From contig JBJEXX010000016.1 in assembly GCA_051886215.1 (NCBI GenBank), positions 4,877-68,876 on the forward strand: a stretch of 64,000 bases of DNA, given 5' to 3'. This document shows positions 6,239-57,206 of the stretch, piece after piece. The notes under the pieces were generated by a model. The model did no database searches. It worked only from the letters and a program-made list of their open reading frames with translations, and was not told where the DNA came from. Position 1 is the first letter of the stretch. Each line of letters starts with the position of its first letter. Origin of the DNA: Bacilli bacterium. GTDB lineage: Bacteria; Bacillota_I; Bacilli_A; RF39; UBA660. Both the position numbers and the translations under genes were made by a program.

Positions 6239-6240
6239 TA

Positions 6241-8019: not shown

Positions 8020-8020
8020 A

Positions 8021-8533: not shown

Positions 8534-8566
8534 TGGAGATTTAGAGTATAATAAAAGAATGAAAAA

Positions 8567-10378: not shown

Positions 10379-10411
10379 TGTGAGTAAATTACTTACATCA
10401 TTTTTATTTCA

Positions 10412-10440
10412 TTGAAATCATTTTTATAATGTTATATAAT
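10412..10440 (+). promoter_or_regulatory. Sigma-A-type promoter for the LCP gene
   Basis: TTGAAA, 17-nt spacer, TATAAT; about 25 nt upstream of the RBS AGGAGGG. Confidence 0.4.
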
Positions 10441-10465
10441 ATTATTACATACTAGGAGGGATTAA

Positions 10466-12268: not shown

Positions 12269-12300
12269 ATTTACAAATGTTTACAATACTTAACAAATAA

Positions 12301-12322
12301 AGACAGACTATTCTGTCTTTTT
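12301..12322 (+). terminator. Rho-independent terminator after the LCP gene
   Basis: agacaga-ctat-tctgtct hairpin, then TTTT. Confidence 0.65.
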
Positions 12323-12369
12323 ATAATGTAATTTGTTATAATTATTATGATAATGAGGAGGTGTATATA

Positions 12370-34717: not shown

Positions 34718-34725
34718 GTGATTAA

Positions 34726-44137: not shown

Positions 44138-45655
44138 TTGAGAGTAAAAAAATCATTTTTTAATGCTATTTCAAATTCATTAATATTAATAATAAGATCA
44201 ATTCTTTTATTTTTAGTTAGAATTGTATTTGTTAGAACACTAGGAAAGGTGTATTTGGGAGTAGATAGTTTATTTACTAATATTTTATTGGTACTTTCAA
44301 TTACTGATTCTGGAATTAGTACTGCTATTAATTTCAGTTTATATAAACCTTTGGCGGAACATGATAATCAAAAAATAAGTTTTTTAATGACTTTTTATAA
44401 AAAAATGTATAGAAATTTAGGAATAATTGTATTAGTTATTGGATTAGCATTTATTCCATTATTAAAGTTTGTTATAACAGAAAATATAGAATATATATAT
44501 ATATATTATTTGATTTATTTATTAACAACAGTTATGAGTTATTTTATTTCTTACAAAGATTCATTATTAATTGCAGATCAAAATTTGTATAAATCAAGTG
44601 CTATTGTTGGTACAACCTATATTATAATGTATTTGTTAAGAATAGTTTTTTTAATTATATTGCCAAATTTTTTAATATTTACATTAATACAATTAATTAT
44701 GATGTTTGTTCAAAGAATTTTAGTAAACAAGTATATAACAAATAAATATAAAAATATAGATTTTAATGAAAAAAAAGGAATATCTAAACAAGAACAGCGG
44801 ACAATCTTTAAAAATGTTAAATCTATGTTTTTAAATAAATTAGGATATTTTTTGGTGAATGGTACAGATAATATTATTATTTCAGCTATACCATCTTTAG
44901 GTTTGGGAACAGTTGCTGTTTATACTAATTATTATTCAATAATTAGTATGGTTGATAGTATTATAAGTAGGGGATTATCAGGAATAACTTCAAGTTTTGG
45001 TGATTTGGCGGTAAACGAATCCAAAAAAGTTCAAGAAGATGTGTTTAATATTATATCTTTTATATCTTTTTGTATATATGGTTTATTCAGTGTAGGCTTC
45101 TTGTTTTTAATAACTGATTTTATAAAAATATGTTTTGGAAATTCTTATAAATTAGAAAAACCTTTAACTGTTATCATTTGTATAAATTTTTATATTATAG
45201 GTATATTAAAAACTTTGGACATAATTAAGGAAGCAACAGGTAATTATATACAAGATAGATATGCTAATTTAATACAAGCTATTATCAATATAATATTATC
45301 AATTGTTTTAGGAAAAAAGATTGGCTTACTAGGAATTGTTATTGCAACATTAATAAGCTATATTGCAGTACCATTATGGAATAAGCCATATATAGCATTT
45401 AAATATATATTTCAAAAGCAACCCTTTAAATATTTGGTTAAACAATTAAAATATATTCTATCTTTAATAATTATAGGTTTTATTTGTTGTTTTGTAATAA
45501 GGGGTATAGATATTAATAACATATTTTTAGAATTTATTTTAAAAATAATAATTATAACTATAATATATATATTATGTATAAGTTTAATTTATTGGAAAAC
45601 AGACGAATATAAATATTTAGTTAATACTATAAAAAAAATAGTAAAAAAGAATTAG
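44138..45655 (+). CDS. Wzx-like polysaccharide flippase (MOP superfamily)
   Basis: 505 aa with about 14 TM segments. TTG start with AGGTGA RBS. Confidence 0.6.
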   Translation: MRVKKSFFNAISNSLILIIRSILLFLVRIVFVRTLGKVYLGVDSLFTNILLVLSITDSGISTAINFSLYKPLAEHDNQKISFLMTFYKKMYRNLGIIVLVIGLAFIPLLKFVITENIEYIYIYYLIYLLTTVMSYFISYKDSLLIADQNLYKSSAIVGTTYIIMYLLRIVFLIILPNFLIFTLIQLIMMFVQRILVNKYITNKYKNIDFNEKKGISKQEQRTIFKNVKSMFLNKLGYFLVNGTDNIIISAIPSLGLGTVAVYTNYYSIISMVDSIISRGLSGITSSFGDLAVNESKKVQEDVFNIISFISFCIYGLFSVGFLFLITDFIKICFGNSYKLEKPLTVIICINFYIIGILKTLDIIKEATGNYIQDRYANLIQAIINIILSIVLGKKIGLLGIVIATLISYIAVPLWNKPYIAFKYIFQKQPFKYLVKQLKYILSLIIIGFICCFVIRGIDINNIFLEFILKIIIITIIYILCISLIYWKTDEYKYLVNTIKKIVKKN

Positions 45656-45954
45656 TTTACTATTTTTTTCTTTAAATCATAAATTTTTCTATTTAATATA
45701 GAAAAAGGATTTATATATAAAAATATAACATTTTTTGAAATTTTTTTTAGTTTTTTAACACTTTTGATAATTGTTTACAAATTGTATTTAAATCATTAAT
45801 AATTTTGATTTCAGCTTTTTTATCTGTTTTTATATTTTTATTAAATCTATATCTTAATTTTTGAACTTTTTCAAATAAGTACAATAAAATATATGTTTTA
45901 TTTATTATTTGTGCTAAAATAAATTTATAAGTAAATAAAGGATTGAGTGATTTT

Positions 45955-46827
45955 ATGGCTGATTTTAGAAAATATGAAACAAAAGAATTAAAACAACTTC
46001 ATAAAGTTGAAATAGAAATGTTAAAAGATATAAATAAGATATGTAAAAAATATAAAATAAGCTATTTTGCGTTAGATGGCACTGGTATTGGGGCTTTAAG
46101 ACATAAAGGATTTATTCCATGGGATGATGATATTGATTTAAGATTTATAAGAGAAGATGCTTACAAATTTAGAGAATGTGTTGAAAAAGAAATGGGAGAT
46201 AAATACTATTTTATTGATAGGAATAATTCCAAACTTCCAATTACGTTCATGAAAATGTGTAAAAAAAATACAATATTTCAAGATGATGATGCTTATTTAC
46301 TAAATGAAGAGGTAGGTATATTTGTAGATATTTTTCCAATGGATTATGTATCTGATGATAAAAAGACCAGGGAAAAACAATTAGGAAAATCTTGGTATTT
46401 ATTTAAACTTGGAACACTTGCTTGTATAAAATCTCCTGTAATAGCTTGTCATGGATTAAAAGAAAAATTTTATTTATTTATTTGTACAATTATGCATTAT
46501 TTATTAAATATTTTAGGTTTAACGGGTAATAGATTATTTAATAAAGGGGAAAAAATTGTAGATAGAAATAAAAAGACAAATACAATTGCTTCTTTAAATA
46601 CAGTTAAAAAGAATACAAGTATTTTTGATATCAATGATATATTTCCTGTGAGAAAAGTACCTTTTGAAGATACTTATGTATATGTTCCTAAAAATGCTGA
46701 AAAATTATTGAATGAATACTTTGGAGATTTTATGAAATTGCCTCCAGAAAGAGATAGGCATAATCACTTTCCAAGGAAACTAATATTTGATACAAGAAAG
46801 GTGGATATAAATGAAAAAAATGATTAA
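45955..46827 (+). CDS. licD: LicD-family phosphotransferase (paralog 1)
   Basis: KISYFALDGTGIGALRHKGFIPWDDDIDL and GIFVDIFPMD are LicD/nucleotidyltransferase-fold motifs. Confidence 0.65.
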   Translation: MADFRKYETKELKQLHKVEIEMLKDINKICKKYKISYFALDGTGIGALRHKGFIPWDDDIDLRFIREDAYKFRECVEKEMGDKYYFIDRNNSKLPITFMKMCKKNTIFQDDDAYLLNEEVGIFVDIFPMDYVSDDKKTREKQLGKSWYLFKLGTLACIKSPVIACHGLKEKFYLFICTIMHYLLNILGLTGNRLFNKGEKIVDRNKKTNTIASLNTVKKNTSIFDINDIFPVRKVPFEDTYVYVPKNAEKLLNEYFGDFMKLPPERDRHNHFPRKLIFDTRKVDINEKND

Positions 46828-47893
46828 TTTTACAGTGGGTCCTGTTCAATCAAGTGAATTGGTAAATAATATTGGTAGTGAACAAGTTCCTTATTTTAGA
46901 ACAGAAGAGTTTTCAAATTTAATGCTTGAAAATGAACGATTAATGAAAAAATTTGTTAAATCTGAAGAAGATGCGAGAGTTGTTTTTATTACTGGATCTG
47001 GTACTGCTTCAATGGAAGCAACAGTAATAAATACACTAAATGAAAATGATAGAGCTTTGATTGTTAATGGTGGAAGTTTTGGCGCTAGATTTGTTGAATT
47101 ATGTAGAATTCATAATATTCCTTATGATGATATTAAACTAGATTTAGGTTGCCCATTGACTAAAGAAATATTAAGCAATTATGATGGGAAAAAATATACG
47201 GCTTTTTTAGTTAATTTAGATGAAACTTCAACGGGAGTATTATATGATTTAGATATTATTAGCGAATTTTGTCAGAAAAATAATATATTCTTAATAGTAG
47301 ATGCAATTAGCGCATTTCTTGCTGATGAAATTAATATGGCTGATAAAAAAATAGATGTTTTAATAACTGGATCACAGAAAGCACTCGCTTGTCCTCCTGG
47401 TATTTCTATTATTGTTTTATCGAATAATGCTTTAGATAGAGTTAGTAGAATTGATTCTAAGAGTATGTATTTTGATTTGAAGAGTGCATTGAAAAATGGA
47501 GAAAGAGGACAAACTCCATTTACACCAGCTGTTGGAATATTAAGACAAATAAATGCAAGATTAAATGATATAGATCAAAATGGTGGAGTAGATAAGGAAG
47601 TAGAAAAAACTCATGAGCTAGCATTATATTTTAGAGAAAAAATAAAAAATTTGCCACTAAAAATGGTAACAGTTTCACCGACAAATGCAGTTACAAGTTT
47701 ATATTCTTTGAATAATAGAGCCTATGATACATTTTTGTATTTGAAAGATAATTGTAATATTTGGATTTGTCCTAATGGAGGAGACCTAAAAGATAAAGTA
47801 TTTAGAGTTGGACATATAGGATGTTTAACTAAGAAACATTATGATTATCTAATAGAAAAATTAAATGAATTAAATAATAAAGGATTGTTATAA
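46811..47893 (+). CDS. Class V pyridoxal-phosphate-dependent aminotransferase
   Basis: ...VVFITGSGTASMEATVINTL...DAISAF...TGSQKAL... (PLP-lysine region), similar to serine-pyruvate/AEP-type transaminases. Confidence 0.7.
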   Translation: MKKMINFTVGPVQSSELVNNIGSEQVPYFRTEEFSNLMLENERLMKKFVKSEEDARVVFITGSGTASMEATVINTLNENDRALIVNGGSFGARFVELCRIHNIPYDDIKLDLGCPLTKEILSNYDGKKYTAFLVNLDETSTGVLYDLDIISEFCQKNNIFLIVDAISAFLADEINMADKKIDVLITGSQKALACPPGISIIVLSNNALDRVSRIDSKSMYFDLKSALKNGERGQTPFTPAVGILRQINARLNDIDQNGGVDKEVEKTHELALYFREKIKNLPLKMVTVSPTNAVTSLYSLNNRAYDTFLYLKDNCNIWICPNGGDLKDKVFRVGHIGCLTKKHYDYLIEKLNELNNKGLL

Positions 47894-47894
47894 T

Positions 47895-49235
47895 ATGAAA
47901 AAAGTAATTACATACGGCACATATGATTTATTGCATCATGGTCATATAAGATTATTAGAAAGAGCAAAGCAATTGGGTGATTATTTGATAGTTGGAGTTA
48001 CATCTGAAGATTTTGATAAAAAAAGAGGTAAAATTAATGTACAACAATCATTAATGGAGCGTGTTAAAGCAGTAAAAGAAACGGGATTAGCAGATGAAAT
48101 AATTATTGAAGAATACGAAGGACAAAAAATAGATGATATAATTAAGTACGGAATTGATGTATTTACAGTGGGTTCTGATTGGAAAGGATATTTTGATTAT
48201 TTAAGCGAATATTGTGAAGTGATTTATTTAGATAGAACAAAAGGTATTTCAAGCACTGAACTTAGGAGTTCTGTTAAGCCTTTAAGCATAGGAGCCTTAG
48301 GATATTCATCTTTAATAAAAAAGATCATAAAAGAAATATCTTATGTTAATGGAGTTGAGATTACTCATATCTTATCAAATGATAAATCTCTTAAAAAGAA
48401 TTTAAAAGGAAATATAAAATTTTCTAAAACGTATGGTGATTTGCTAAAAAGTGTTGATGCTGTATATGTCGCAGAAAATCCCAAAAATCATTATGAGATA
48501 ATTAAAAAAGCTTTATTAAATAAAAAACATGTTTTATATGAATCTCCATTAGTTTTATCAAGAAAAGAATGTGATGAACTATTTACTATAGCCAAAAAAA
48601 ATAATCTAGTACTTATGGAAGCAATTAAAACATTATATTCTCAGGCTTATAACAGATTAATATTGCTTGCTAAATCAGGAACTATTGGAAAAGTTGTTTC
48701 GGTAGACGTGACTTGTACAAGTTTAAAACAATTAAATGAAATAGGTTATGAAAATATAACTGATTATCAAAATAGTATTTGTGCTTGGGGTCCTATAGCA
48801 CTTCTTCCTATATTACATTTATTAGGAACAAACTACGAATCTAAAAAAATTGAGTCATTTTATTTGGATAAAAATTCAGATTTTGATTTATTTACAAAAA
48901 TTAATTTTTCTTATGAAAAAGCAGTAGCATCAATAAAAGTAGGTAAGGGTGTTAAATCAGAAGGAGAATTAATAATATCGGGAACAAAGGGATATATATA
49001 CGTTCCTTCTCCATGGTGGAAAACTGATTATTTTGAAATAAGATATGAAGATCAAAATGATACTAAAAGATATTTTTATAATCTTGATGGTGAAGGTATT
49101 AGAAATGAATTAGTTACTTTTAGTAAGACTATTAAAAGTGGGCAACCTAATTATTTAATAGATAATAAAATATCTAAAGCAATTGTTTCTGTTATTGAAG
49201 ATTGTTATAGAAATAAAGATAAAAAAGAATTGTAG
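47895..49235 (+). CDS. Fusion protein: N-terminal glycerol-3-phosphate-cytidylyltransferase-like domain + C-terminal Gfo/Idh/MocA-type oxidoreductase
   Basis: GTYDLLHHGHIRLL (HxGH) and RTKGISSTELR (RTxGISTT) are TagD-family motifs. The C-terminal half has Gfo/Idh/MocA-like blocks (AVYVAENPKNHYEIIKKALLNKKHVLYESP). Confidence 0.65.
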   Translation: MKKVITYGTYDLLHHGHIRLLERAKQLGDYLIVGVTSEDFDKKRGKINVQQSLMERVKAVKETGLADEIIIEEYEGQKIDDIIKYGIDVFTVGSDWKGYFDYLSEYCEVIYLDRTKGISSTELRSSVKPLSIGALGYSSLIKKIIKEISYVNGVEITHILSNDKSLKKNLKGNIKFSKTYGDLLKSVDAVYVAENPKNHYEIIKKALLNKKHVLYESPLVLSRKECDELFTIAKKNNLVLMEAIKTLYSQAYNRLILLAKSGTIGKVVSVDVTCTSLKQLNEIGYENITDYQNSICAWGPIALLPILHLLGTNYESKKIESFYLDKNSDFDLFTKINFSYEKAVASIKVGKGVKSEGELIISGTKGYIYVPSPWWKTDYFEIRYEDQNDTKRYFYNLDGEGIRNELVTFSKTIKSGQPNYLIDNKISKAIVSVIEDCYRNKDKKEL

Positions 49236-49243
49236 GAGAACTT

Positions 49244-50131
49244 ATGAAAGAAAACAAGAAAAAAGAATTATCTAAAGAACAATTTAGAAAGATGCAATTA
49301 GTACAATTAGATATGTTGGTTGATTTTGATAGAGTATGTCGTAAAAATAAAATTAATTATGTAATATTTGGTGGTACTATGCTTGGTGCTATTCGTCATA
49401 AGGGGTATATACCATGGGATGATGATGCGGATATTGCAATGTTGAGAGAAGATTATGAAAAATTTAAAAAACATATGAATGAATTAGATTCTAATATTTG
49501 TTATTTTCAGGATAATACAACTGATCCATATTATAGATGGGGATATGGTAAATTGAGAAGAACTGGTACAAAATACGTAAGAGTAGGACAGGAACACTTA
49601 AAATCTAAAAATGGGATATTTATAGATGTTTTTCCTATGGATGATATCCCTAAAAGTATATTTTTTCAAATTATTCAAGATGTTAAATGTTTTTGCTTAA
49701 GAAAAATATTATGGTCTGAAGTTGCAAAAGTAAATTCTAAAGGTTTTATGAAATTGTTTTATAATTTATTATCAAAAATACGTACAGAAAAAGTATATAG
49801 AATAGTTAGTAAAATGACTTCTAAAAGTAGTAATTTAAGCCCTAATAGAGTAAGAACACTTCTATTTCCTGCAACAGGTACTTTATATAAAAAGAACCCT
49901 TTAAAGGAAAGATATGGAATGCCTAAAGAGTGGTTTATTGAAAGAAAACAGTATAATTTTGAAAATGTAAAATTATATGGAACAAAAGATTATGATACAA
50001 TTTTAAAATATATTTATGGAGATTATATGAAACTTCCTGATGAAGATAAGAGGGAGCCACATTCTCCATTTTCAGAAATATCATTTCCTAAAAATTATAG
50101 AGGTGGAAAAAATGATAAAAAAAATAACTAA
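49244..50131 (+). CDS. licD: LicD-family phosphotransferase (paralog 2)
   Basis: INYVIFGGTMLGAIRHKGYIPWDDDADIAM and GIFIDVFPMDD. Confidence 0.65.
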   Translation: MKENKKKELSKEQFRKMQLVQLDMLVDFDRVCRKNKINYVIFGGTMLGAIRHKGYIPWDDDADIAMLREDYEKFKKHMNELDSNICYFQDNTTDPYYRWGYGKLRRTGTKYVRVGQEHLKSKNGIFIDVFPMDDIPKSIFFQIIQDVKCFCLRKILWSEVAKVNSKGFMKLFYNLLSKIRTEKVYRIVSKMTSKSSNLSPNRVRTLLFPATGTLYKKNPLKERYGMPKEWFIERKQYNFENVKLYGTKDYDTILKYIYGDYMKLPDEDKREPHSPFSEISFPKNYRGGKNDKKNN

Positions 50132-50903
50132 AGAATCAAATGAATTAGTAGATTATATAGGTGATAATTATTCTAAGTGTTTATATTTATATTTAGATTA
50201 TGTTAAGTATGGATTGACGAATGAAAACATTAATTTTTGGACTCAATATAATAAAAATGATGAAATTATTTCTATAATATTAATGTATTATAATGGTATG
50301 CATATTTATTCTAAAAATAAAGATATAAAGTATGATGAAATAGTTGATTTGATAAATGAACAAAAACCTTCTGTAATATGTGCAGAGAAATTTATTATTA
50401 AAAATTTAAGTCCATTGTTTAAAGATTATGAAGTAGAATACGGGAATGTGAGAGAATTAAATAAAATAGACATTTCATTTGATAGTAACGAGGTAATAAT
50501 AGATATTTCTCAAAATGATTTAGAAAATATTACTAAATTAATATTGAGCGATGAAATGGGAAATGGATATACTTATGATAATTTATTAGAACAAATAATA
50601 ACTAGAAGAAAAGAAAAATATGGAAGAAATTATATTTTAAAAAGTGATGGTATTATAGTGGCACATGCTGGTACTGGTGCAGAAGATGATAAAGTAGCTA
50701 TTGTGAATTATGTAATTACTAAAAAAGAATATAGAGGGAAGGGTTACGCTAAAAAATTAGTTGGGAAATTATGTTTTGATTTAATAAATGAAGGAAAACG
50801 TATTTTTTTAATTAATTATTCGCAAGAATCAACTATTTTATATGATAAACTAGGATTTATGGCAGTTGAAGAGATAGGAAAACTAAATAAAGTAAATAAA
50901 TAA
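50112..50903 (+). CDS. GNAT-family N-acetyltransferase
   Basis: C-terminal ...IVAHAGTGAEDDKVAIVNYVITKKEYRGKGYAKKLVGKLCFDLINEGKRIFL. RBS AGGTGG 5 nt before the ATG at 50112. Overlaps the LicD gene by 20 nt. Confidence 0.5.
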   Translation: MIKKITKESNELVDYIGDNYSKCLYLYLDYVKYGLTNENINFWTQYNKNDEIISIILMYYNGMHIYSKNKDIKYDEIVDLINEQKPSVICAEKFIIKNLSPLFKDYEVEYGNVRELNKIDISFDSNEVIIDISQNDLENITKLILSDEMGNGYTYDNLLEQIITRRKEKYGRNYILKSDGIIVAHAGTGAEDDKVAIVNYVITKKEYRGKGYAKKLVGKLCFDLINEGKRIFLINYSQESTILYDKLGFMAVEEIGKLNKVNK

Positions 50904-51045
50904 TATATATACAAATATTCAGGATGTTTATATGAAAAAATGTAATATATTATTATCGTTTATATATAATTTAAATTGTGATTTTGGGTTTGATAATTAA
51001 TAAAAAAAATAGTAAAATATATATTGTGTAAAATTAGGTGATATT

Positions 51046-53646
51046 ATGAAACGAACTCATATAAAAATATTATTATTTATTTTATTTATATCAGCGTTAT
51101 TTTTTTCAACTAACTATAAAGTTAGCGCAATTAATGATGTTAGTGTAAGTTATAGTACGCATATACAAAATATCGGATGGCAAAATTATAGAAGAGATGG
51201 TGCTACAAGTGGAACAAGTGGGAAGTCTCTTAGGTTGGAAGGAATTAAGATAGTTTTATCTAATTCATTATATACAGGAGGCATAGAATACAAAACTCAT
51301 ATACAAAATATTGGATGGGAAAATTCTTGGAAAAATGATGGAAAAATGGCTGGTACTAGTGGAAAGTCTCTTAGACTTGAAGCAATAAAAATAAAATTAT
51401 ATGGTAAAATATCTGATTATTATGATGTATATTATAGAGTGCATGTTCAAAACTTTGGATGGTTAGGCTGGGCTAAAAATGGTGAAAATGCTGGTACTGC
51501 GGGATATGCTTATAGACTAGAAGCAATTGAAATAAAATTGGTCAAAAAAGGTGAAAATCCACCAATGTCTTCATCAGATTCATATATTCAAAGGTATGTA
51601 TCATATCAGACGCATATTCAAAATGTTGGATGGCAAGTAAATAAATATGATGGTGGTACTAGTGGAACAAGTGAAAAATCATTAAGATTGGAAGCAATAA
51701 AAATAAAGTTATCAAATCAAGAATATTCTGGAAATATAGAATATCAAACTCATATTCAAAACATTGGATGGGAATCATCTTGGAAAAAAAATGGTGAAAT
51801 GAGTGGAACAAGTGGAAAATCATTAAGATTGGAAGCAATAAGAATAAAACTAACAGGGGAAATGTCTGAATATTATGATGTATATTATAGGGTACATGCT
51901 CAAAACTTTGGATGGCTTGGATGGGCTAAAAATGGAGACCCTGCTGGAACTCAAAGTTATGCATATAGACTTGAGGCAATAGAAATTAAATTAGTAAAAA
52001 AAGGTGAAGATGGGCCTTATAGTACTATAAAGCCATTTTATAAAAAATTAATTTCATATCAAAGTTATATATCTGGTAAAGGCTATTCTTCATTTACTCA
52101 AGATGGTAAAACATCTGGAGTTATTGGTAATAGATTAGAAGGTTTTAAAATAAAAATGGTTCAGACTGATTATAAAGGATTATTGCAGTATTCTTCTTAT
52201 GTAGAAAATGAAGGTTGGCAAGATTACGTAAGTGAAAATAATTTTAGTGGAACAATTGGTCAAAATAAAAAAATCGAAGCTATAAAGGTTAATTTAATCG
52301 GAGATGTTTGTAATTATTATGATTTATATTATAGAGTATTTATTTCTAATATAGGGTGGCTAAGTTGGACTTCAAATGATAAACAAACAGGTAATATTGG
52401 ATTTGGAAATAGAATAGAAGCTATAGAAGTTAAGCTTGTAGAAAAGAATGAAATTGTTGAAATTGATGAAAATAATATATATAAAGAAAATGATTTAAAA
52501 GTAATGTATTCTTCATATATTCAAAACTCAACATGGCAACAAGAGGTTGAAAATGAAGAAATTAGTGGAACTACAGGTCTATCAAAAAGAATAGAAGCTA
52601 TTAAAATTTCTTTAAATAAAAAGACAATTAAAGGAAATATAGAATATAGTACACACTTGTCCAATATAGGATGGACTTCTTTTGTAAAAGATGGAATTGC
52701 TTCAAATAGTACTAATAATAGAATAGAAGCTATCAAAATAAAATTAACTGGAGATATAGAACAGCATTATGATATTTATTATAGAGTACATGTATCTAAT
52801 ATAGGATGGATGGGTTGGACAAAAAATGGAGAACCTGCAGGTACCACTGGGGAAGCAAGAACTATCGAAGCTTATCAGATATCATTAGTAAAAAAAGGAG
52901 AAGAATTTCTTGGAGATACTACTAATTCCTATTTAGAGGCAAAGTGGATTACAGAAGCTGATGGTAATAGATATTTTTATAATATATATGGTACAAAAGT
53001 AACAGGAGACTATATTATTAATGGAAAAACATATTATTTTGGTCCAACCGGGATATATTTAGGAAATTCCAAATTAAAAGTAATAGATGTTTCTTCTTAT
53101 CAAGGGAATATTGATTGGTCTAGAGTTGCTAGTAGTGGAATTTATGGAGTTATTTTAAGACTAACTACGTCTTGCAATCCTAGATACGAAGATTCTAAAT
53201 TTTCAACTTATATAGAAGAAGTTAAGAAATATAATATACCATATGGTATATATGTATATAGCTACGCAACAAGTTATTCAGATGGGCAATGTTATGGAAG
53301 TTATACTAAAGATTTGATATCAAAATATAAATTAAATCCAATTTTAGGAATATATTTTGATATGGAAGAAACGATAGAAAACGGCAAGACAATAACTACT
53401 GCTCAATATACAGATGCATTTAATGGATTTAAATCATATATAAATAATGCTAAAATTTATACATATTTAAATCTAGCCAATGGTGCCATGAATACTGAAT
53501 ATTTAAGAAGTTATATAACTTGGATAGCTCAGTGGGATGTATCTAAAACTAGTTATACTGGAAACTATGATATGTGGCAGTATTCATCTAAAGGACAAAT
53601 ACCAGGTATAATTGGTAATGTAGATATGAATTATTTATATAAATAG
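51046..53646 (+). CDS. Secreted GH25 muramidase (lysozyme) with about 12 ChW (clostridial hydrophobic W) repeats
   Basis: Signal peptide. Repeats of the form Y.THIQNIGWQ/E....G..SGTSGKSLRLEAIKIKL. C-terminal GH25 core: KVIDVSSYQGNIDWSRVASSGIYGVILRL...YGIYVYSYA. Confidence 0.7.
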   Translation: MKRTHIKILLFILFISALFFSTNYKVSAINDVSVSYSTHIQNIGWQNYRRDGATSGTSGKSLRLEGIKIVLSNSLYTGGIEYKTHIQNIGWENSWKNDGKMAGTSGKSLRLEAIKIKLYGKISDYYDVYYRVHVQNFGWLGWAKNGENAGTAGYAYRLEAIEIKLVKKGENPPMSSSDSYIQRYVSYQTHIQNVGWQVNKYDGGTSGTSEKSLRLEAIKIKLSNQEYSGNIEYQTHIQNIGWESSWKKNGEMSGTSGKSLRLEAIRIKLTGEMSEYYDVYYRVHAQNFGWLGWAKNGDPAGTQSYAYRLEAIEIKLVKKGEDGPYSTIKPFYKKLISYQSYISGKGYSSFTQDGKTSGVIGNRLEGFKIKMVQTDYKGLLQYSSYVENEGWQDYVSENNFSGTIGQNKKIEAIKVNLIGDVCNYYDLYYRVFISNIGWLSWTSNDKQTGNIGFGNRIEAIEVKLVEKNEIVEIDENNIYKENDLKVMYSSYIQNSTWQQEVENEEISGTTGLSKRIEAIKISLNKKTIKGNIEYSTHLSNIGWTSFVKDGIASNSTNNRIEAIKIKLTGDIEQHYDIYYRVHVSNIGWMGWTKNGEPAGTTGEARTIEAYQISLVKKGEEFLGDTTNSYLEAKWITEADGNRYFYNIYGTKVTGDYIINGKTYYFGPTGIYLGNSKLKVIDVSSYQGNIDWSRVASSGIYGVILRLTTSCNPRYEDSKFSTYIEEVKKYNIPYGIYVYSYATSYSDGQCYGSYTKDLISKYKLNPILGIYFDMEETIENGKTITTAQYTDAFNGFKSYINNAKIYTYLNLANGAMNTEYLRSYITWIAQWDVSKTSYTGNYDMWQYSSKGQIPGIIGNVDMNYLYK

Positions 53647-53721: not shown

Positions 53722-54606
53722 ATGAAAGGAATTATATTAGCTGGAGGGTCTGGAACTAGACTTTATCCAATTACAAAAGGTATTAGTAAACAATTAATGC
53801 CAATTTATGATAAACCTATGATTTATTATCCGCTTGCAACTTTAATGCAAGCAGGAATAAAGGAAATATTGGTCATTACTACTCCTGAAGATCAACCGGG
53901 TTTTAAAAGATTATTAAAGGATGGAAGTGATTTCGGGATAGAAATCAGTTATGTTGTACAACCATCACCAGATGGCCTTGCACAAGCTTTTATCTTAGGA
54001 GAAGAATTTATTGGAGATGATTCATGTGCTATGGTTCTTGGGGATAACATTTTCTTTGGTAATGGATTCGAAAAGCTTTTAGAAAACGCAAAAGAAAGTG
54101 CAGATGAAGGTAATGCTACAATATTCGGTTTCCAAGTTCATGATCCAGAAAGATTTGGAATTATGGAAATTGATAAAGATAATAATGTATTATCTGTTGA
54201 AGAAAAACCACAAAAACCAAAATCTGATTATGCTATTACAGGATTATATTTTTATCCTAAGGGAGTAACAAAAAAAGCAAAAGAAGTTAAACCTTCTGCA
54301 AGAGGTGAACTTGAAATTACTACATTAAATGATATGTACTTAAAAGATGGGGTATTAAAAGCTGAATTATTAGGAGAGGGATATACTTGGTTTGATACAG
54401 GTACTTTTGAATCTATGATGGAAGCTGCTGACTTGATTAGATCTATTGAGAAAAATAGTGGAAAAGTTATTAGTAGTCCTGAAGCTATTTCATTTAAAAA
54501 AGGATGGTTATCAAAAGAAAAAATGAAAGAAGTTGGAGAACTTCATAAAAAGAATACTTATGGGGAATATTTATTAAAACTATTAGAAAAAGAAGGTGTA
54601 AAATAA
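53722..54606 (+). CDS. rmlA: Glucose-1-phosphate thymidylyltransferase
   Basis: [18 protein letters not shown]...[16 protein letters not shown]... is the canonical RmlA N-terminus. Confidence 0.9.
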
Positions 54607-55217
54607 TGATACAAATTAATAAGAAAGAAACAAATTTAAAAGATTGTTATGTATTAACTCCAACTGCTTATGGAGATGATAGAGGATATTTTTGCCCTTT
54701 CTTTAAACAAGAAGATTTAGAAGAATTAGGAATTAAATTTGAAGGAGTTGTACAAGCAAATCGCTCAAAAAGCTCAAAAGGAGTTGTACGTGGACTTCAC
54801 TTTCAAAAAAATCCAAAATGTCAGGCTAAAATAGTTGAAGTTGTATCAGGCTCTGCAATTGATGTTGTTGTTGATATTAGAGAAGGATCTCCAACATATG
54901 GTCAATATACAACATTATTATTAAAACCGTTTTCAAAAGATGATCCAGAAAGTGGTAAACAGTTATTTGTTCCTCGTGGTTTTGCGCATGGTTTTATTAG
55001 TTTAGAAGATGATACAGTATTTCAATATTTAATTGATAATGATTATTCTAATGAACATGAAGGTGGAATTTTATGGAATGATAAAGAACTAAATATTCCT
55101 TGGGAAGAAATGTTTGAAAAATATGGTATTACGGAACCAAACTTATCTGATAAAGATCAAAAACATTTAGTACTTTCTAAAAGTCCAAAATATTTTACTT
55201 ATAAGGAGAATAAATAA
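54606..55217 (+). CDS. rmlC: dTDP-4-dehydrorhamnose 3,5-epimerase
   Basis: DDRGYF...RGLHFQ...AKIVEVVSGSAIDVVVDIR...GFAHGF (cupin, RmlC motifs). Confidence 0.85.
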   Translation: MIQINKKETNLKDCYVLTPTAYGDDRGYFCPFFKQEDLEELGIKFEGVVQANRSKSSKGVVRGLHFQKNPKCQAKIVEVVSGSAIDVVVDIREGSPTYGQYTTLLLKPFSKDDPESGKQLFVPRGFAHGFISLEDDTVFQYLIDNDYSNEHEGGILWNDKELNIPWEEMFEKYGITEPNLSDKDQKHLVLSKSPKYFTYKENK

Positions 55218-56179
55218 TGAGATATTTTATAACAGGATATAAAGGACAATTAGGTTATGACTTAGCAAGAGAACTTATAAAAAGAAATGAATTGGATATA
55301 ATTATTTCAGATAGAGGTAATTTAGAAGAAGGAATAAATGATAGGGCTATAGAATTAAAAAACAAGCATAATTTATCATTTTATCCTTTAGATATTACTG
55401 ATAAAGAAGCAGTTGATAAATTAATTACAGAAGTTAAACCAGATGTTATATTACATTGTGCTGCATGGACTGCTGTTGATATCGCTGAAGATATGTATGA
55501 TAAAGTTTATGATGTTAATGTTGTAGGTACTGAAAACTTAGTAGAAGCAGCAAGAAACAATGGTTCTAAAATTGTGTATATTTCAAGTGATTATGTATTT
55601 GATGGTACAAAGGATGGAATCTATACAGAAGAAGATGAAGTAAATCCTTTAAGCGTCTATGGAAAAACTAAATATTTAGGTGAAGAAATGACACGTAAAT
55701 ATGATAAACATTTCATTGTAAGAATTTCATGGGTATATGGTATTAATGGTAAAAATTTTGTTAAAACGATGTTGAATTTATCTGAAACTAAAGATGAGCT
55801 AGGTGTAGTATGTGATCAAATTGGATCTCCTACTTATACTCCTGATGTATCTAGATTACTAATCGATATGGTTCAAACTGATAAATATGGAACTTATAAT
55901 GGTACAAATGAAAACTATTGTAGTTGGGCTGATTTTGCTAGAAAAATATTTGAAATAAATAATTGTAATGTTAAAGTAAATGATGTGTTAACAAAGGACT
56001 ATGTTACAAATGCAACAAGACCATTAAATTCTAAATTATCAAAGGAAAAATTAGTTAAGAACGGATTTCAATTATTGCCAACTTGGGAAGATGCTTTAAA
56101 TAGGTATTGTGATGAATTAATTGAAGAAAATCAAGAAGTTGGTAAAATAATTATAAAAAATAGGGAAGGAATGAAGTAA
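55217..56179 (+). CDS. rmlD: dTDP-4-dehydrorhamnose reductase
   Basis: ILHCAAWTAVD...YISSDYVFDG...YGKTK (SDR YxxxK) plus an RmlD-type C-terminus. Confidence 0.85.
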   Translation: MRYFITGYKGQLGYDLARELIKRNELDIIISDRGNLEEGINDRAIELKNKHNLSFYPLDITDKEAVDKLITEVKPDVILHCAAWTAVDIAEDMYDKVYDVNVVGTENLVEAARNNGSKIVYISSDYVFDGTKDGIYTEEDEVNPLSVYGKTKYLGEEMTRKYDKHFIVRISWVYGINGKNFVKTMLNLSETKDELGVVCDQIGSPTYTPDVSRLLIDMVQTDKYGTYNGTNENYCSWADFARKIFEINNCNVKVNDVLTKDYVTNATRPLNSKLSKEKLVKNGFQLLPTWEDALNRYCDELIEENQEVGKIIIKNREGMK

Positions 56180-56180
56180 T

Positions 56181-57206
56181 ATGAAATTTTTAGTAACTGG
56201 GGGAGCAGGTTTTATAGGGAGTAATTATTTACATTATGTAGTTAATAAATATCCAGAAGATACATTTGTATGTTTGGATGCATTAACGTATGCAGGTAAT
56301 TATAATAATATAAAATCTTTAGAAGGTAAACCTAATTACAAATTTGTTAAAATGGATATCCGTGATAAAGAAGGAATTTTTAAATTGTTTAAAGAAGAAA
56401 AATTTGATGTAGTAATTAATTTTGCTGCTGAAAGTCATGTGGATAATTCAATTAAAAATCCTAATATTTTCGCAGAAACAAACATTTTAGGCACTATGAA
56501 TTTATTGAATGCAACAAAAATGATGAGAGACGAAGAAGGTTATGAAATAGTAAGATATCATCAAGTATCCACTGATGAAGTTTATGGAGATTTACCACTT
56601 GATAGACCAGATTTATTATTTACAGAAAATACTCCTATTCATACATCTAGTCCTTACTCATCAAGTAAGGCAAGCGCAGATTTATTTGTTTTAGCGTATG
56701 CAAGAACATTTAAATTACCTGTAACTATATCTAGATGTTCTAATAATTATGGACCATATCAATTTCCAGAAAAATTAATTCCAGTTGTTATTTCAAAAGC
56801 TTTAAAAGATGAACCAATTCCTGTTTATGGAAAAGGTGAAAATGTTCGTGATTGGATTCATGTGCATGATCATAATGTTGGAGTTGATTTAATAGTCAGA
56901 AATGGACGTGTTGGAGAAGTTTATAATTTAGGAGGACATTCTGAAAAAACTAACTTAGAAGTAGTAAAAACTATTTTAAAACAAATGGGGAAACCGGAAA
57001 GTTTAATTACATATGTAACTGATAGACCGGGACATGATTTAAGATATGCCATTGATTCTACTAAATCTGAAAATGAATTAGGCTGGGATAGAACATATAC
57101 ATTTGAAACAGGTATGAAGGAAACTATAGATTGGTATTTAAATAATACTGAATGGATTGATGATATTAAGTCAGGTGCATACAAAGATAGTTATAAAGAA
57201 AATTAA
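56181..57206 (+). CDS. rmlB: dTDP-glucose 4,6-dehydratase
   Basis: MKFLVTGGAGFIGSNY...INFAAESHVDNSI...YSSSKASADL... is the canonical RmlB sequence. Confidence 0.9.
   Translation: MKFLVTGGAGFIGSNYLHYVVNKYPEDTFVCLDALTYAGNYNNIKSLEGKPNYKFVKMDIRDKEGIFKLFKEEKFDVVINFAAESHVDNSIKNPNIFAETNILGTMNLLNATKMMRDEEGYEIVRYHQVSTDEVYGDLPLDRPDLLFTENTPIHTSSPYSSSKASADLFVLAYARTFKLPVTISRCSNNYGPYQFPEKLIPVVISKALKDEPIPVYGKGENVRDWIHVHDHNVGVDLIVRNGRVGEVYNLGGHSEKTNLEVVKTILKQMGKPESLITYVTDRPGHDLRYAIDSTKSENELGWDRTYTFETGMKETIDWYLNNTEWIDDIKSGAYKDSYKEN

What the first reader, a model, noticed from the sequence alone, without database searches (positions are those of the whole stretch)
46811..50903. Predicted pathway for a CDP-activated (N-acetyl)amino-polyol head group transferred by two LicD paralogs
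The gene set is a class V aminotransferase, a TagD-like cytidylyltransferase fused to a Gfo/Idh/MocA oxidoreductase, a GNAT acetyltransferase and two LicD phosphotransferases. Together they suggest oxidation at C2 of a (CDP-)glycerol/polyol phosphate, transamination to an amino-polyol phosphate (serinol-phosphate-like), N-acetylation, and transfer onto the rhamnose-containing polymer. The cytidylyltransferase-oxidoreductase fusion is unusual, and I do not know it from characterised teichoic-acid loci.
Basis: inference. Interest (0 to 1): 0.6.

Follow-up and report, generated by a model that had tools for sequence, protein, structure and literature searches.

The report
Amino-alcohol phosphate decoration module for wall polysaccharide
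Five tightly packed genes in a rhamnose cell-wall polysaccharide locus of an uncultured gut Bacilli bacterium probably make a CDP-activated, N-acetylated amino-alcohol phosphate (most likely serinol phosphate) and attach it to the polymer; the same uncharacterised enzyme pair occurs in hundreds of gut species, but its "oxidoreductase" half lacks the usual catalytic residues.

Summary
The gene set is real. It comprises LicD-1 (45943-46827, just outside the stated start), a class V aminotransferase, an uninterrupted 446-aa TagD-like cytidylyltransferase fused to a Gfo/Idh/MocA-fold domain, LicD-2 and a GNAT. The fusion is not an artefact: more than 500 species representatives across many phyla carry it at 56-63% identity.

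In 76 of 80 loci sampled, a carbonyl-aminating enzyme lies within 2.5 kb of the fusion. This is a class V aminotransferase, a HisC-like class I/II aminotransferase, or an opine dehydrogenase homologue.

The proposed order of steps is not supported. The Gfo-like domain lacks the E-K-P catalytic lysine in 201/201 homologues, lacks the Tyr/His, and has a highly variable dinucleotide loop. An orthologous aminotransferase, and cytidylyltransferases of the same subtype, also work without this domain, including on phage-like contigs.

Best model: DHAP is transaminated to serinol phosphate, this is converted to CDP-serinol, N-acetylated, and transferred by LicD. The head group's identity is inferred, not shown, and I found no description of such a pathway in the searched literature. 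The Gfo-like domain's role is unexplained.

The parts
45943..46827 (+). LicD-1, a LicD-family phosphotransferase (294 aa). It is a divergent paralogue, 28% identical to LicD-2, and lies just outside the finding's start.
   Evidence: PF04991 134.7 bits. PWDDDID motif at aa 59. BLASTP against LicD-2: 28% identity, 2e-28.
46811..47893 (+). Class V (fold type I) PLP aminotransferase of the PDB 3f0h family. The probable start is 46820. PLP-Lys K190, D164 and carboxylate-Arg R332 are present. Predicted reaction: DHAP + amino acid gives serinol phosphate.
   Evidence: PF00266 72.3 bits. Best NCBIfam hits are BhcA 146 bits and PhnW-AepZ 142 bits, both far below their cut-offs. PDB 3f0h matches at 4.3e-132. 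Conserved residues. It sits directly upstream of the fusion in 48/80 loci.
47895..48272 (+). N-terminal cytidylyltransferase domain of the fusion (aa 1-126). It is TagD-like with HxGH and RTxGISST motifs, but belongs to a distinct subtype: R44-G45-K46 and E72-E-Y-E-G-Q-K78 replace the TagD residues KQK and EKNWEQK.
   Evidence: PF01467 68.1 bits. TIGR01518 112 bits, below the 165.4 cut-off. PDB 1coz TagD 1.9e-36. Alignment A5: 66% identity to the CT of Gfo-less CT-AT fusions, against 48-51% to TagDs.
48276..49235 (+). C-terminal Gfo/Idh/MocA-fold domain of the fusion (aa 128-446). Its canonical catalytic and cofactor motifs are degenerate: E216-S217-P218 replaces E-K-P, T275/L277 sit at the Tyr/His site, and the Gly loop is reduced to G133..G136. 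Role unresolved.
   Evidence: PF01408 54.5 bits. AF2 model has block-mean pLDDT mostly >85 (range 76-98) over this domain. Foldseek: 3evn, 4had, 3e9m and KijD10 at TMt 0.82-0.86. Motif alignment. Residue frequencies in 201 homologues. Entropy profile.
49244..50131 (+). LicD-2, the cognate phosphotransferase of the module (295 aa). Predicted to transfer the phospho-head group from the CDP donor to the glycan.
   Evidence: PF04991 144.2 bits. High-scoring orthologues (380-440 bits) lie within about 1.5 kb of the fusion, mostly directly next to it or to its aminotransferase, in L001-L004, L008, L010, L012, L014, L019 and L035. PWDDDAD motif at aa 57. The only PDB relative is FKRP.
50112..50903 (+). 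Two-domain GNAT acetyltransferase (263 aa). Predicted to N-acetylate the head-group amine.
   Evidence: PF00583 38.8 bits and PF12746 27.5 bits. The start is confirmed by the exact match to MGN0973226.1. Orthologues occur in 9/80 loci and in phage-like L081 (184 bits, 6e-56, full length).
44138..45655 (+). Wzx-like flippase (context). Probably exports the decorated lipid-linked side chain.
   Evidence: NF041503 O-unit flippase-like, 42.9 bits, below its cut-off. Homologues lie near the module in L014, L034, L039, L044 and L060.
51046..53646 (+). Secreted protein with 11 ChW repeats and a GH25 muramidase domain (context). A GH25 gene is also part of the E. faecalis epa variable region.
   Evidence: PF07538 536 bits in 11 stretches; PF01183 79.4 bits. 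PMC7188991 for the epa parallel.
53722..57206 (+). rmlA, rmlC, rmlD and rmlB for dTDP-L-rhamnose synthesis (context).
   Evidence: PF00483 252.7, PF00908 198.3, PF04321 292.1 and PF16363 278.9 bits.

Best explanation
The block 45943-50903 is the decoration cassette of an EPA-like rhamnose cell-wall polysaccharide locus. It builds a phosphodiester-linked amino-alcohol head group in four steps.

1. Inferred: the class V aminotransferase aminates a central 2-oxo-alkyl phosphate, most likely dihydroxyacetone phosphate, to serinol phosphate (2-amino-1,3-propanediol 1-phosphate). This is the chemistry of C. jejuni Cj1437.
2. Inferred: the TagD-like domain of the fusion condenses that product with CTP to give CDP-serinol. 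Pyrophosphate release pulls the unfavourable transamination forward.
3. Inferred: the GNAT N-acetylates the amine. At which stage this happens is unknown.
4. Inferred: LicD-2 transfers the phospho-head group onto a lipid-linked side-chain sugar. The more divergent LicD-1 may do the same at a second site. The side chain is then flipped by the Wzx-like protein and joined to the rhamnan.

Shown here: the domain families, the integrity of the fusion, the near-obligate pairing of the fusion with an aminating enzyme, the frequent co-location with LicD or TagF-like transferases, and the loss of canonical dehydrogenase motifs in the Gfo-like domain.

The Gfo-like domain is probably not a classical NAD(P) dehydrogenase. 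Its strongly conserved C-terminal sheet points to a ligand-binding, structural or non-redox role that I cannot name.
For: 1. Amination is a conserved partner function.
- Of 80 loci, 50 have a class V AT within 2.5 kb of the fusion, 25 a HisC-like class I/II AT (TIGR01141 229-241 bits), and 3 an opine dehydrogenase homologue (PDB 3c7a, 8.7e-24).
- Only 4 have none, and 2 of those have almost no upstream sequence.
- HisC acts on 2-oxo-propyl phosphate esters, and so does SerC, which is a class V enzyme (established family knowledge). Cj1437 makes serinol phosphate (PMC12409886).

2. The aminotransferase and a nucleotidyltransferase act consecutively.
- This AT family is fused to a TagD-like CT (P0125, P0179, P0201), to a LicC-like nucleotidyltransferase (P0133, P0159) and to LicD (P0226).
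- It sits next to NTP_transf_3 genes in L088 and L091.

3. The Gfo-like domain is dispensable.
- Phage-like L081 carries DUF4422-LicD, a CT-AT fusion and an orthologous GNAT, with no Gfo domain.
- IMG/VR contig L087 carries an AT at 58% identity, a 154-aa CT and a TagF-like transferase.
- The CT of the Gfo-less fusions is 66% identical to the window's CT.

4. The Gfo-like domain lacks K of E-K-P in 201/201 members and lacks the Tyr/His. Its dinucleotide loop lies in the 66th-97th percentile of variability.

5. The product resembles CDP-glycerol. The CT is 48-51% identical to TagD, and the transferases nearby are LicD (48/80 loci) or TagF-like Glyphos_transf.

6. No other conserved biosynthetic gene, and no PEP mutase, was seen in the window ORFs scanned (about 12-64 kb) or among the commonest neighbour families of the loci. 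The precursor is therefore likely a central metabolite.
Against: - No chemistry was tested. The identity of the keto substrate (DHAP) and of the head group is inference from family precedents.
- The model leaves the strongly conserved Gfo-like domain without a function. Yet that domain is present in every one of the more than 500 relatives found with the fusion query, and its closest structural relatives include an NDP-sugar ketoreductase (KijD10). That would fit action on a CDP-linked substrate.
- A non-canonical NAD site, or a relocated catalytic lysine such as the invariant K245, cannot be excluded from sequence alone.
- The Gfo-less modules might rely on host functions, or might make a different head group.
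- The CT domain of the AF2 model has low confidence (pLDDT 40-65), so its pocket could not be analysed.
- The GNAT is present in only 9/80 loci, so acetylation is not a core step.
Confidence: 0.48

Rival explanations
1. The CT domain makes CDP-glycerol from glycerol-3-phosphate. The fused Gfo domain oxidises C2 to give CDP-dihydroxyacetone. The aminotransferase converts that to CDP-serinol, followed by N-acetylation and LicD transfer. The end product is the same as in the best explanation, but the steps run in a different order.
For: - The obligate CT-Gfo fusion suggests consecutive reactions, and an aminating enzyme lies within 2.5 kb in 76/80 loci.
- The whole Gfo fold is retained, with an NDP-sugar 3-ketoreductase (KijD10) among the best structural matches.
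- The canonical substrate-side elements are very strongly conserved: KHVLCExP, AIKTAYS and aa 343-403.
- The CT is close to authentic TagD (1.9e-36).
- An opine dehydrogenase partner would also fit a CDP-ketone intermediate.
Against: - The catalytic Lys of E-K-P is absent in 201/201 members and replaced by variable small residues (S/A/T/P). The Tyr/His is also absent.
- The Gly-rich loop and the residue at the end of beta-2 are among the most variable positions.
- An orthologous AT, and CTs of the same subtype, work without any Gfo domain (L081, L083, L087).
- AT-CT and AT-LicC-like fusions link the aminotransferase directly to nucleotidyl transfer.
Confidence: 0.25
2. The head group is a different amino phosph(on)ate: phosphoserine (from 3-phosphohydroxypyruvate), phosphoethanolamine, or 2-aminoethylphosphonate as in the CMP-AEP pathway. 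It would be activated by the CT and transferred by LicD.
For: - The aminotransferase's best curated matches include PhnW/AepZ AEP transaminases (142 bits) and, more weakly, SerC (56 bits).
- PDB 6pd1, a nucleotidyltransferase fused to an AEP transaminase, matches at 2.4e-20.
- Ethanolamine-phosphate and choline-phosphate cytidylyltransferases belong to the same CT superfamily.
Against: - The scores are far below the family cut-offs (142 against 360.8 for PhnW-AepZ).
- No PEP mutase or phosphonopyruvate decarboxylase was found in the window ORFs scanned or among the commonest neighbour families of the 80 loci.
- Phosphoglycolaldehyde is not a standard metabolite.
- HisC-like replacement partners score higher for HisC than for the decarboxylase CobD (229-241 against 143-162 bits).
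- TagF-like transferases in some loci suggest a glycerol-phosphate-like donor.
Confidence: 0.13
3. There is no amino head group. The fusion simply supplies CDP-glycerol (a TagD function with a vestigial domain) for LicD-mediated glycerol-phosphate decoration. The aminotransferase and GNAT serve an unrelated step, such as amino-sugar or amino-acid metabolism.
For: - The CT domain is 48-51% identical to TagD and keeps the HxGH and RTxGISST motifs.
- The Gfo-like domain looks catalytically degenerate.
- LicD proteins can use CDP-glycerol-type donors: pneumococcal WchX is named the glycerol phosphotransferase in PMC1391919; that WchX belongs to the LicD family is my own knowledge, not checked here.
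Against: - Near-obligate adjacency to an aminating enzyme of three unrelated families in 76/80 loci across phyla would then be unexplained.
- So would the direct AT-CT gene fusions.
- The CT falls below the TagD equivalog cut-off (112 against 165.4 bits). It also carries family-specific substitutions at conserved TagD positions: K44 to R, and W74 to E.
Confidence: 0.08

Closest known systems
Teichoic-acid-type decorations of rhamnopolysaccharides, e.g. E. faecalis EPA (rml genes, GT2/GT4, Wzx, two LicD proteins, the CDP-ribitol synthase TarI, and a GH25)
   Same: The locus architecture matches: rhamnan genes with an ABC-2 exporter, a Wzx-like flippase, two LicD-family phosphotransferases, a GH25 enzyme and rmlACDB. 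A CDP-activated alcohol phosphate is made in the locus and transferred by LicD (PMC7188991).
   Different: The precursor enzymes differ. EPA uses the IspD-type TarI for CDP-ribitol. This locus uses a TagD-type CT fused to a Gfo-like domain, plus an aminotransferase and a GNAT. The predicted head group carries nitrogen.
C. jejuni HS:2 serinol phosphate synthesis (Cj1437, a DHAP transaminase; Cj1436, a serine-phosphate decarboxylase)
   Same: A PLP enzyme in a surface-polysaccharide locus makes serinol phosphate as a building block (PMC12409886). The HisC-like partners found in 25/80 loci belong to the class I/II family, to which (own knowledge, not tested here) Cj1437 also belongs.
   Different: In C. 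jejuni, serinol phosphate is joined as an amide to glucuronate by an ATP-grasp enzyme and is then dephosphorylated. No CDP activation or phosphodiester is involved. Here the amine is predicted to stay free or be N-acetylated, and the phosphate forms the linkage.
CMP-2-aminoethylphosphonate pathway (an AEP transaminase paired or fused with the nucleotidyltransferase PntC; PDB 6pd1) with LicD-type transfer
   Same: The logic is the same: a class V aminotransferase product is nucleotidylated with CTP, and the phospho(no) head group is transferred to glycans. Gene fusions between the aminotransferase and a nucleotidyltransferase occur in both systems.
   Different: No PEP mutase or decarboxylase is present. 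The aminotransferase scores 142 bits against the 360.8 cut-off for PhnW-AepZ. The nucleotidyltransferase is TagD-type, not LicC-type, and carries the extra Gfo-like domain.
Pneumococcal Gro-2-P module (wchX, gtp1, gtp2, gtp3) that makes CDP-2-glycerol
   Same: The position in a rhamnose-containing polysaccharide locus is the same: wzx, then the glycerol phosphotransferase gene wchX (LicD-type by own knowledge), then precursor genes, then rml genes (PMC5581491). The product is a C3 alcohol phosphate activated as a CDP derivative.
   Different: The gtp genes are annotated as a dehydrogenase, a nucleotidyl transferase and a phosphotransferase, with no aminotransferase (PMC3493582). I could not obtain their sequences, so homology to the Gfo-like or CT domains is untested.
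Bifunctional CDP-ribitol synthases (Bcs1/TarIJ type) and KijD10-type NDP-sugar ketoreductases
   Same: In both cases a nucleotidyltransferase is combined with an oxidoreductase-fold domain. KijD10 is among the closest structural matches of the C-terminal domain.
   Different: Those enzymes keep intact NAD(P) and catalytic motifs and use different families (IspD plus MDR). Here the E-K-P lysine and the Tyr/His are missing.

Membership tests
Glycerol-3-phosphate cytidylyltransferase TagD (TIGR01518 equivalog) | Whole-protein score at or above the curated cut-off (165.4 bits) | tested here: not met
   112 bits. It is a member of the broader PF01467 superfamily at 68.1 bits against a 21 cut-off.
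Glycerol-3-phosphate cytidylyltransferase TagD (TIGR01518 equivalog) | HxGH and RTxGISTT nucleotide-binding motifs | tested here: met
   H14-H-G-H17 and R114-TKGISST.
Glycerol-3-phosphate cytidylyltransferase TagD (TIGR01518 equivalog) | TagD-type residues in the substrate loops (K44-x-K46; E-K-N/G-W74) | tested here: not met
   R44-G-K46 with a 1-residue insertion, and E72-E-Y-E75, are invariant or nearly so in the fusion family. That these TagD residues are important is my own knowledge of the 1coz/1n1d work, not re-derived here.
Gfo/Idh/MocA NAD(P)-dependent oxidoreductases | Two-domain fold (N-terminal Rossmann domain plus C-terminal alpha/beta sheet) | tested here: met
   PF01408 54.5 bits. 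Foldseek TMt 0.82-0.86 to 3evn, 3e9m, 4had and KijD10, E about 1e-21.
Gfo/Idh/MocA NAD(P)-dependent oxidoreductases | Catalytic lysine of the E-K-P motif | tested here: not met
   E216-S217-P218 aligns with the EKP of 3evn, 3e9m, 4had and KijD10 (K102). Position 217 is S137/A41/T11/P9/V1/M1 in 201 homologues, with no Lys.
Gfo/Idh/MocA NAD(P)-dependent oxidoreductases | Second catalytic residue (His or Tyr of D-x3-H/Y, or the Tyr of the DHDH-like subfamily) | tested here: not met
   D271-x3-T275. The Tyr of 3evn and 3e9m (TAY) aligns with L277, and T275/S276 are invariant.
Gfo/Idh/MocA NAD(P)-dependent oxidoreductases | Conserved glycine-rich dinucleotide-binding loop (GxGxxG/A) | tested here: not met
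   Only G133 and G136 are conserved. Positions 137-142 have entropy 2.2-3.6 bits, which is the 66th-97th percentile of the domain. Actual cofactor binding cannot be tested with these tools.
Class V (fold type I) aminotransferases | Pfam PF00266 above the gathering score, with the PLP lysine, the PLP-N1 aspartate and the C-terminal substrate arginine | tested here: met
   72.3 bits against 21.5. K190, D164 and R332 are invariant in A4. PDB 3f0h matches at 4.3e-132.
2-Aminoethylphosphonate transaminase (TIGR03301 PhnW-AepZ) / CMP-AEP pathway | Score at or above the cut-off, and PEP mutase plus phosphonopyruvate decarboxylase in the locus | tested here: not met
   141.7 bits against 360.8. No PEP mutase was found among the window ORFs scanned (about 12-64 kb) or among the 10 commonest neighbour clusters of the 80 loci.
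LicD phosphotransferases | PF04991 above the cut-off and the N-terminal D-x-D motif | tested here: met
   134.7 and 144.2 bits. PWDDDID at aa 59 and PWDDDAD at aa 57.
LicD phosphotransferases | Use of a CDP-alcohol donor to form a phosphodiester on a glycan | not testable with these tools
   Inferred from family precedents: LicD with CDP-choline, FKRP with CDP-ribitol. FKRP is the only PDB match.
GNAT N-acetyltransferases | PF00583 / PF12746 above the gathering scores | tested here: met
   38.8 bits against 20.7, and 27.5 bits against 26. The acceptor substrate was not tested.
Pneumococcal CDP-2-glycerol pathway (Gtp1-3 plus WchX) | Dehydrogenase plus nucleotidyl transferase plus phosphotransferase (kinase-type), with no aminotransferase | tested here: inconclusive
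   Only the annotations could be read (PMC3493582; PMC1391919). The sequences and the primary paper (PMC2950487) are not held. The window has no kinase-type gene and does have an aminotransferase.
EPA-like rhamnose cell-wall polysaccharide loci | rmlABCD, rhamnosyltransferases with an ABC exporter, a Wzx-dependent decoration region, LicD and GH25 | tested here: met
   for the window; PMC7188991 for the reference system. The Wzx assignment is weak (42.9 bits against a 300 cut-off).

The most novel reading that the evidence does not exclude
A previously undescribed pathway, spread by horizontal transfer through more than 500 mostly host-associated (gut and rumen) species, makes CDP-serinol or a close amino-alcohol analogue. 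The carriers include Bacillota, Bacteroidales such as Segatella copri, Spirochaetes, Elusimicrobia, Fusobacterium, a Methanobrevibacter MAG, and phages.

The pathway would install a phospho-amino-alcohol head group on surface glycans. The group would be zwitterionic where no GNAT is present. This would be a new chemical class of glycan decoration, comparable in role to phosphocholine, phosphoethanolamine or D-alanylation.

The pathway's signature enzyme carries a Gfo/Idh/MocA-fold domain that has lost its dehydrogenase machinery and gained a new function not yet identified.
Probability: 0.4. Interest if true: 0.78.

Novelty: new variant of a known kind. Interest (0 to 1): 0.62.

Why it matters
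Phosphodiester-linked small head groups on bacterial surface glycans include phosphocholine, phosphoethanolamine, AEP, glycerol phosphate and ribitol phosphate. They control surface charge, resistance to antimicrobial peptides, phage adsorption, autolysin docking and recognition by host immunity.

If this module installs a serinol-phosphate-type group, it adds a new member to that list. It is encoded in hundreds of gut and rumen species across phyla, including Segatella copri and Lachnospiraceae, and it is carried by phage-like contigs. That makes it relevant to strain-level surface variation and to phage-host dynamics. Where the amine stays free, it is also relevant to zwitterionic-polysaccharide immunomodulation.

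The work gives a testable function to two large orphan families: the PDB 3f0h aminotransferases and the CT-Gfo fusion proteins, which are currently annotated as "Gfo/Idh/MocA family oxidoreductase" or "choline-phosphate cytidylyltransferase". It also flags a probable pseudo-dehydrogenase domain whose strong conservation calls for an explanation.

Tried and rejected
1. Pneumococcal gtp1-3/wchX (CDP-2-glycerol) as the same system. I half-remembered gtp3 as an aminotransferase. The annotations I could read call the three a dehydrogenase, a nucleotidyl transferase and a phosphotransferase. The primary paper and the sequences are not held. I kept it only as an analogue.

2. Phosphonate (AEP) route. 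No PEP mutase or decarboxylase was found in the window ORFs scanned or among the commonest neighbour families of the loci, and the AT score is far below the PhnW-AepZ cut-off.

3. Sugar (DegT-type) aminotransferase acting on NDP-4-keto sugars. The enzyme is class V, with no DegT match.

4. Assembly artefact for the fusion. Rejected.

5. Literature search for CDP-serinol, CDP-dihydroxyacetone, phosphoserinol, or serinol together with teichoic acid or LicD. Nothing relevant turned up beyond the C. jejuni amide pathway.

6. Viral-contig scan with the single CT-AT protein P0125 found nothing. The alignment-based scan found one locus, L087.

7. Promoter and terminator scan of 45500-51200. The counts are at chance level in this 26% GC DNA, so it is uninformative.

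No pocket analysis or ligand docking was possible.

9. I used the single exhaustive representative search on the aminotransferase rather than on the Gfo-like domain. As a result, stand-alone homologues of the degenerate Gfo-like domain were not surveyed.

Full report
**What is in the sequence**

The window is a 25% GC contig. It matches an NCBI MAG labelled "Bacilli bacterium": the fusion is MGN0973224.1, LicD is MGN0973225.1 and the GNAT is MGN0973226.1. All genes discussed are on the + strand.

From about 33.1 to 57.2 kb lies a rhamnose-type cell-wall polysaccharide locus:
- GT2 glycosyltransferases
- an ABC-2 exporter pair (33992-35496)
- a double GT2, and a GT2-WsaF rhamnosyltransferase-like protein
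- a DUF2142 membrane protein
- a GT2 with a DUF2304 partner, and a GT4
- a Wzx-like flippase (44138-45655)
- the block of interest
- a secreted protein with 11 ChW repeats and a GH25 muramidase domain (51046-53646)
- rmlA, rmlC, rmlD and rmlB (53722-57206)

The block itself is translationally coupled, with overlaps or gaps of at most 8 nt. It contains:
- LicD-1 (45943-46827)
- a class V aminotransferase (46811-47893, probable start 46820)
- a 446-aa ORF fusing a TagD-like cytidylyltransferase (aa 1-126) to a Gfo/Idh/MocA-fold domain (aa 128-446)
- LicD-2 (49244-50131)
- a 263-aa GNAT (50112-50903)

The only correction is that one of the two LicD genes lies just upstream of the stated start.

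**The fusion is real and very widespread**

The ORF has no internal stop. A 99%-identical protein, the representative of its 90%-identity cluster, is on five other contigs. All 120 best hits in the protein collection have both Pfam domains and are about 447 aa long, at 60-69% identity. The search hit its ceiling of 8000 scored candidates.

The 80 best loci are 56-63% identical to the window's protein. They come from:
- Lachnospiraceae, Oscillospiraceae and Bacilli
- Bacteroidales (Segatella copri, Alistipes, Muribaculaceae)
- Elusimicrobia, Spirochaetes, a planctomycete and Lentisphaeria
- Fusobacterium, Synergistetes and Coriobacteriia
- a Methanobrevibacter MAG

Where a source is stated, these are mostly gut or rumen samples. 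The fusion is thus uncharacterised, but it is not rare.

**What travels with the fusion**

In the 80 loci:
- a class V aminotransferase orthologous to the window's lies directly upstream in 48, and within 2.5 kb in 50
- most of the remaining loci have, in the same position, a roughly 358-aa class I/II aminotransferase that is HisC-like (TIGR01141 229-241 bits, just under its 276.55 cut-off; CobD 143-162 bits)
- three loci have an opine dehydrogenase homologue instead (PDB 3c7a octopine dehydrogenase, 8.7e-24)
- only four loci have none of these: two have almost no upstream sequence, one ends 244 bp downstream of the fusion, and one (L062) is a true exception

Three unrelated enzyme families that all aminate a carbonyl occupy the same slot. 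This is strong comparative evidence that amination is a real step tied to the fusion.

HisC acts on a 2-oxo-propyl phosphate ester. So does SerC, which is a class V enzyme (established family knowledge). C. jejuni Cj1437 makes serinol phosphate for its capsule (PMC12409886).

LicD genes occur in 48/80 loci. LicD-2 orthologues at 380-440 bits lie close to the fusion, mostly directly next to it or to its aminotransferase, in ten of them. TagF-like CDP-glycerol glycerophosphotransferases appear in some Bacteroidales loci. GNAT orthologues are present in nine loci.

The other neighbours are the usual variable glycosyltransferases, flippases, pyruvyl transferases and acyltransferases. There is no further conserved biosynthetic enzyme and no PEP mutase. 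The precursor is therefore probably a central metabolite.

**The Gfo-like domain does not look like a working dehydrogenase**

The AlphaFold model is confident for aa 128-446 (block-mean pLDDT mostly above 85). It has the complete two-domain fold. The best structural matches are the structural-genomics proteins 3evn, 4had and 3e9m, the TDP-sugar 3-ketoreductase KijD10, and dimeric dihydrodiol dehydrogenase, at TMt 0.81-0.86.

Residue-level alignment tells a different story:
- the window's "KHVLYESPL" lies opposite "KHVLVEKPF", "KPVLLEKPF", "KHVVCEKPL" and KijD10's "KHVLAEKPL" (K102)
- the catalytic lysine is therefore a serine here
- across 201 family members that position is S/A/T/P/V/M and never K
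- the Tyr of the closest relatives aligns with L277, with T275-S276 invariant before it

Only G133 and G136 of the glycine-rich loop are conserved. Positions 137-142 and residue 162, at the end of beta-2, fall in the 66th-97th percentile of variability within the domain. By contrast, the C-terminal sheet (aa 343-403) is almost invariant, at 0.3-0.55 bits.

In true dehydrogenases the cofactor loop and the catalytic residues are the best conserved parts. Here the pattern is reversed. I cannot exclude a non-canonical NAD site or a relocated lysine (K245 is invariant). But a classical oxidation of CDP-glycerol is not what the sequence suggests.

**The aminotransferase and cytidylyltransferase work without the Gfo-like domain elsewhere**

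An exhaustive search with the aminotransferase found 428 representatives at E ≤ 1e-30. Among the best 150 listed are fusions of this aminotransferase family to several partners:
- a TagD-like CT (P0125 and P0179 as CT-AT; P0201 as AT-CT)
- a LicC/MobA-like nucleotidyltransferase (P0133, P0159)
- LicD (P0226)

The CT domains of P0125 and P0179 are 66% identical to the window's CT, against 48-51% for authentic TagDs. They share its R-G-K loop and its one-residue insertion.

P0125 sits on a 30.6-kb phage-like contig with a terminase (phrog_2, 5.5e-17) and a Phage_T4_Y07B domain. It lies between a DUF4422-LicD fusion and a GNAT that is a full-length orthologue of the window's GNAT (184 bits). No Gfo domain is present.

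An IMG/VR contig carries an aminotransferase 58% identical to the window's, followed by a 154-aa CT, a DUF1919 protein, a TagF-like transferase and a GT2. More distant family members sit next to LicC-like nucleotidyltransferases and TagF-like genes.

These fusions and pairings indicate that the aminotransferase product is the nucleotidyltransferase substrate. They also indicate that the Gfo-like domain is an add-on of one very successful lineage.

**Mechanism proposed**

Best-supported reading:
1. DHAP plus an amino donor gives serinol phosphate (aminotransferase).
2. Serinol phosphate plus CTP gives CDP-serinol plus PPi (CT domain).
3. The amine is N-acetylated (GNAT, stage unknown).
4. The phospho-head group is transferred to a side-chain sugar by LicD-2. 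LicD-1, only 28% identical to LicD-2, may act at a second site.
5. The side chain is flipped by the Wzx-like protein and attached to the rhamnan, as proposed for E. faecalis EPA decorations (PMC7188991).

Every chemical step is inference. What is shown is the domain content, the conserved gene associations, the gene fusions and the motif losses.

It gives the same end product and would explain why CT and Gfo are always fused in this lineage. I rate it lower because of the missing catalytic residues and the Gfo-less modules.

Two further readings are less likely:
- other amino head groups (phosphoserine, phosphoethanolamine, AEP)
- a plain CDP-glycerol supply with an unrelated aminotransferase

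**Comparison with known systems and novelty**

Four systems are closest:
- The architecture is that of EPA-like rhamnopolysaccharide decoration.
- The logic of aminotransferase, then CTP-dependent activation, then LicD transfer is that of the CMP-AEP pathway.
- The chemistry of the first step has a precedent in Cj1437.
- The pneumococcal wchX-gtp1-3 module occupies the same position in a rhamnose-containing capsule locus. It is annotated without an aminotransferase, and I could not compare sequences.

I found no paper in the searchable library mentioning CDP-serinol, CDP-dihydroxyacetone or a serinol-phosphate substituent of a wall polymer. That library lacks most subscription journals, so this is an absence of evidence, not proof of novelty.

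I classify the finding as a new variant of a known kind of system: the CDP-alcohol/LicD head-group decoration. Two points remain open, namely the identity of the head group and the function of the degenerate Gfo-like domain.

**Verdict**

- Observation: confirmed.
- Interpretation: partly supported. The product class is plausible and strengthened. The specific oxidation-then-transamination order is weakened.
- Interest: 0.62. The module is widespread in host-associated (gut and rumen) microbes, is carried on phage-like contigs, is chemically undefined, and is directly testable with a few enzyme assays and one polysaccharide NMR study.

Noticed in passing
L081 (Logan SRR32214352 contig, 30.6 kb), 6004-10266: A phage-like contig (terminase large subunit phrog_2 5.5e-17; Phage_T4_Y07B domain; many small ORFans) carries a three-gene module: a DUF4422-LicD fusion (666 aa), a CT-aminotransferase fusion (485 aa) and a GNAT orthologous to the window's. 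It is a candidate phage-encoded surface-glycan conversion cassette.
   Followed up: partly
L087 (IMG/VR UViG_3300031994_001875), 7998-12521: A viral contig carries an aminotransferase 58% identical to the window's, a stand-alone 154-aa cytidylyltransferase, a DUF1919 protein, a TagF-like CDP-glycerol glycerophosphotransferase and a GT2. No Gfo-like domain is present.
   Followed up: partly
L056 (uncultured Methanobrevibacter sp. RUG344, 153-kb contig), about 7941-12152: A contig from a MAG labelled as an archaeal methanogen carries LicD, the class V aminotransferase, the CT-Gfo fusion (58% identity) and a second LicD. This suggests cross-domain transfer. The binning of the contig was not checked.
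   Followed up: no
L021 3257-4375; also L061 8864-9982 and L067 7587-8732: An opine dehydrogenase homologue (PF02317 82.7 bits; PDB 3c7a 8.7e-24) replaces the aminotransferase directly upstream of the fusion. This hints at an opine-type (secondary amine) head-group variant.
   Followed up: partly
window 51046-53646: An 866-aa secreted protein with 11 ChW (clostridial hydrophobic W) repeats, one weak choline-binding-type repeat and a C-terminal GH25 muramidase domain sits directly after the module. It may be an autolysin that docks on the decorated polymer, like the GH25 gene in the E. faecalis epa region.
   Followed up: no
window 25150-26040 and 27261-28157: Two paralogous YhcG/DUF1016 PDDEXK-nuclease genes lie about 1.2 kb apart, upstream of the polysaccharide locus.
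   Followed up: no
window 12361-14439 and 14458-15777: Surface proteins with SH3_3, cadherin-like beta-sandwich and a type I dockerin domain are encoded in a Bacilli MAG. A dockerin suggests a cohesin-based surface assembly.
   Followed up: no
window 16931-18715: A 594-aa sigma-70-type protein has region 2 at aa 112-177 and region 4 only at aa 547-588. The roughly 370-residue stretch between them has no Pfam match.
   Followed up: no
PDB 9os7: A 555-aa chain deposited as "Methionine--tRNA ligase" matches the aminotransferase over aa 4-287 (chain residues 197-480, E 5.9e-27). That is an unexpected name for a class V aminotransferase-like region.
   Followed up: no
window 60076-60933: A Bro-N domain protein, of a type usually found in phages and mobile elements, is inserted between two FAD-dependent HI0933-like oxidoreductase genes.
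   Followed up: no
L084 2020-6545 (ENA ERZ27252234): A more distant AT-CT fusion (P0201, 37% identity) sits with a CDP-alcohol phosphatidyltransferase, a B12-binding radical SAM enzyme, several methyltransferases and NeuB. It may belong to a methylated amino-alcohol phosphate lipid or glycan pathway.
   Followed up: no
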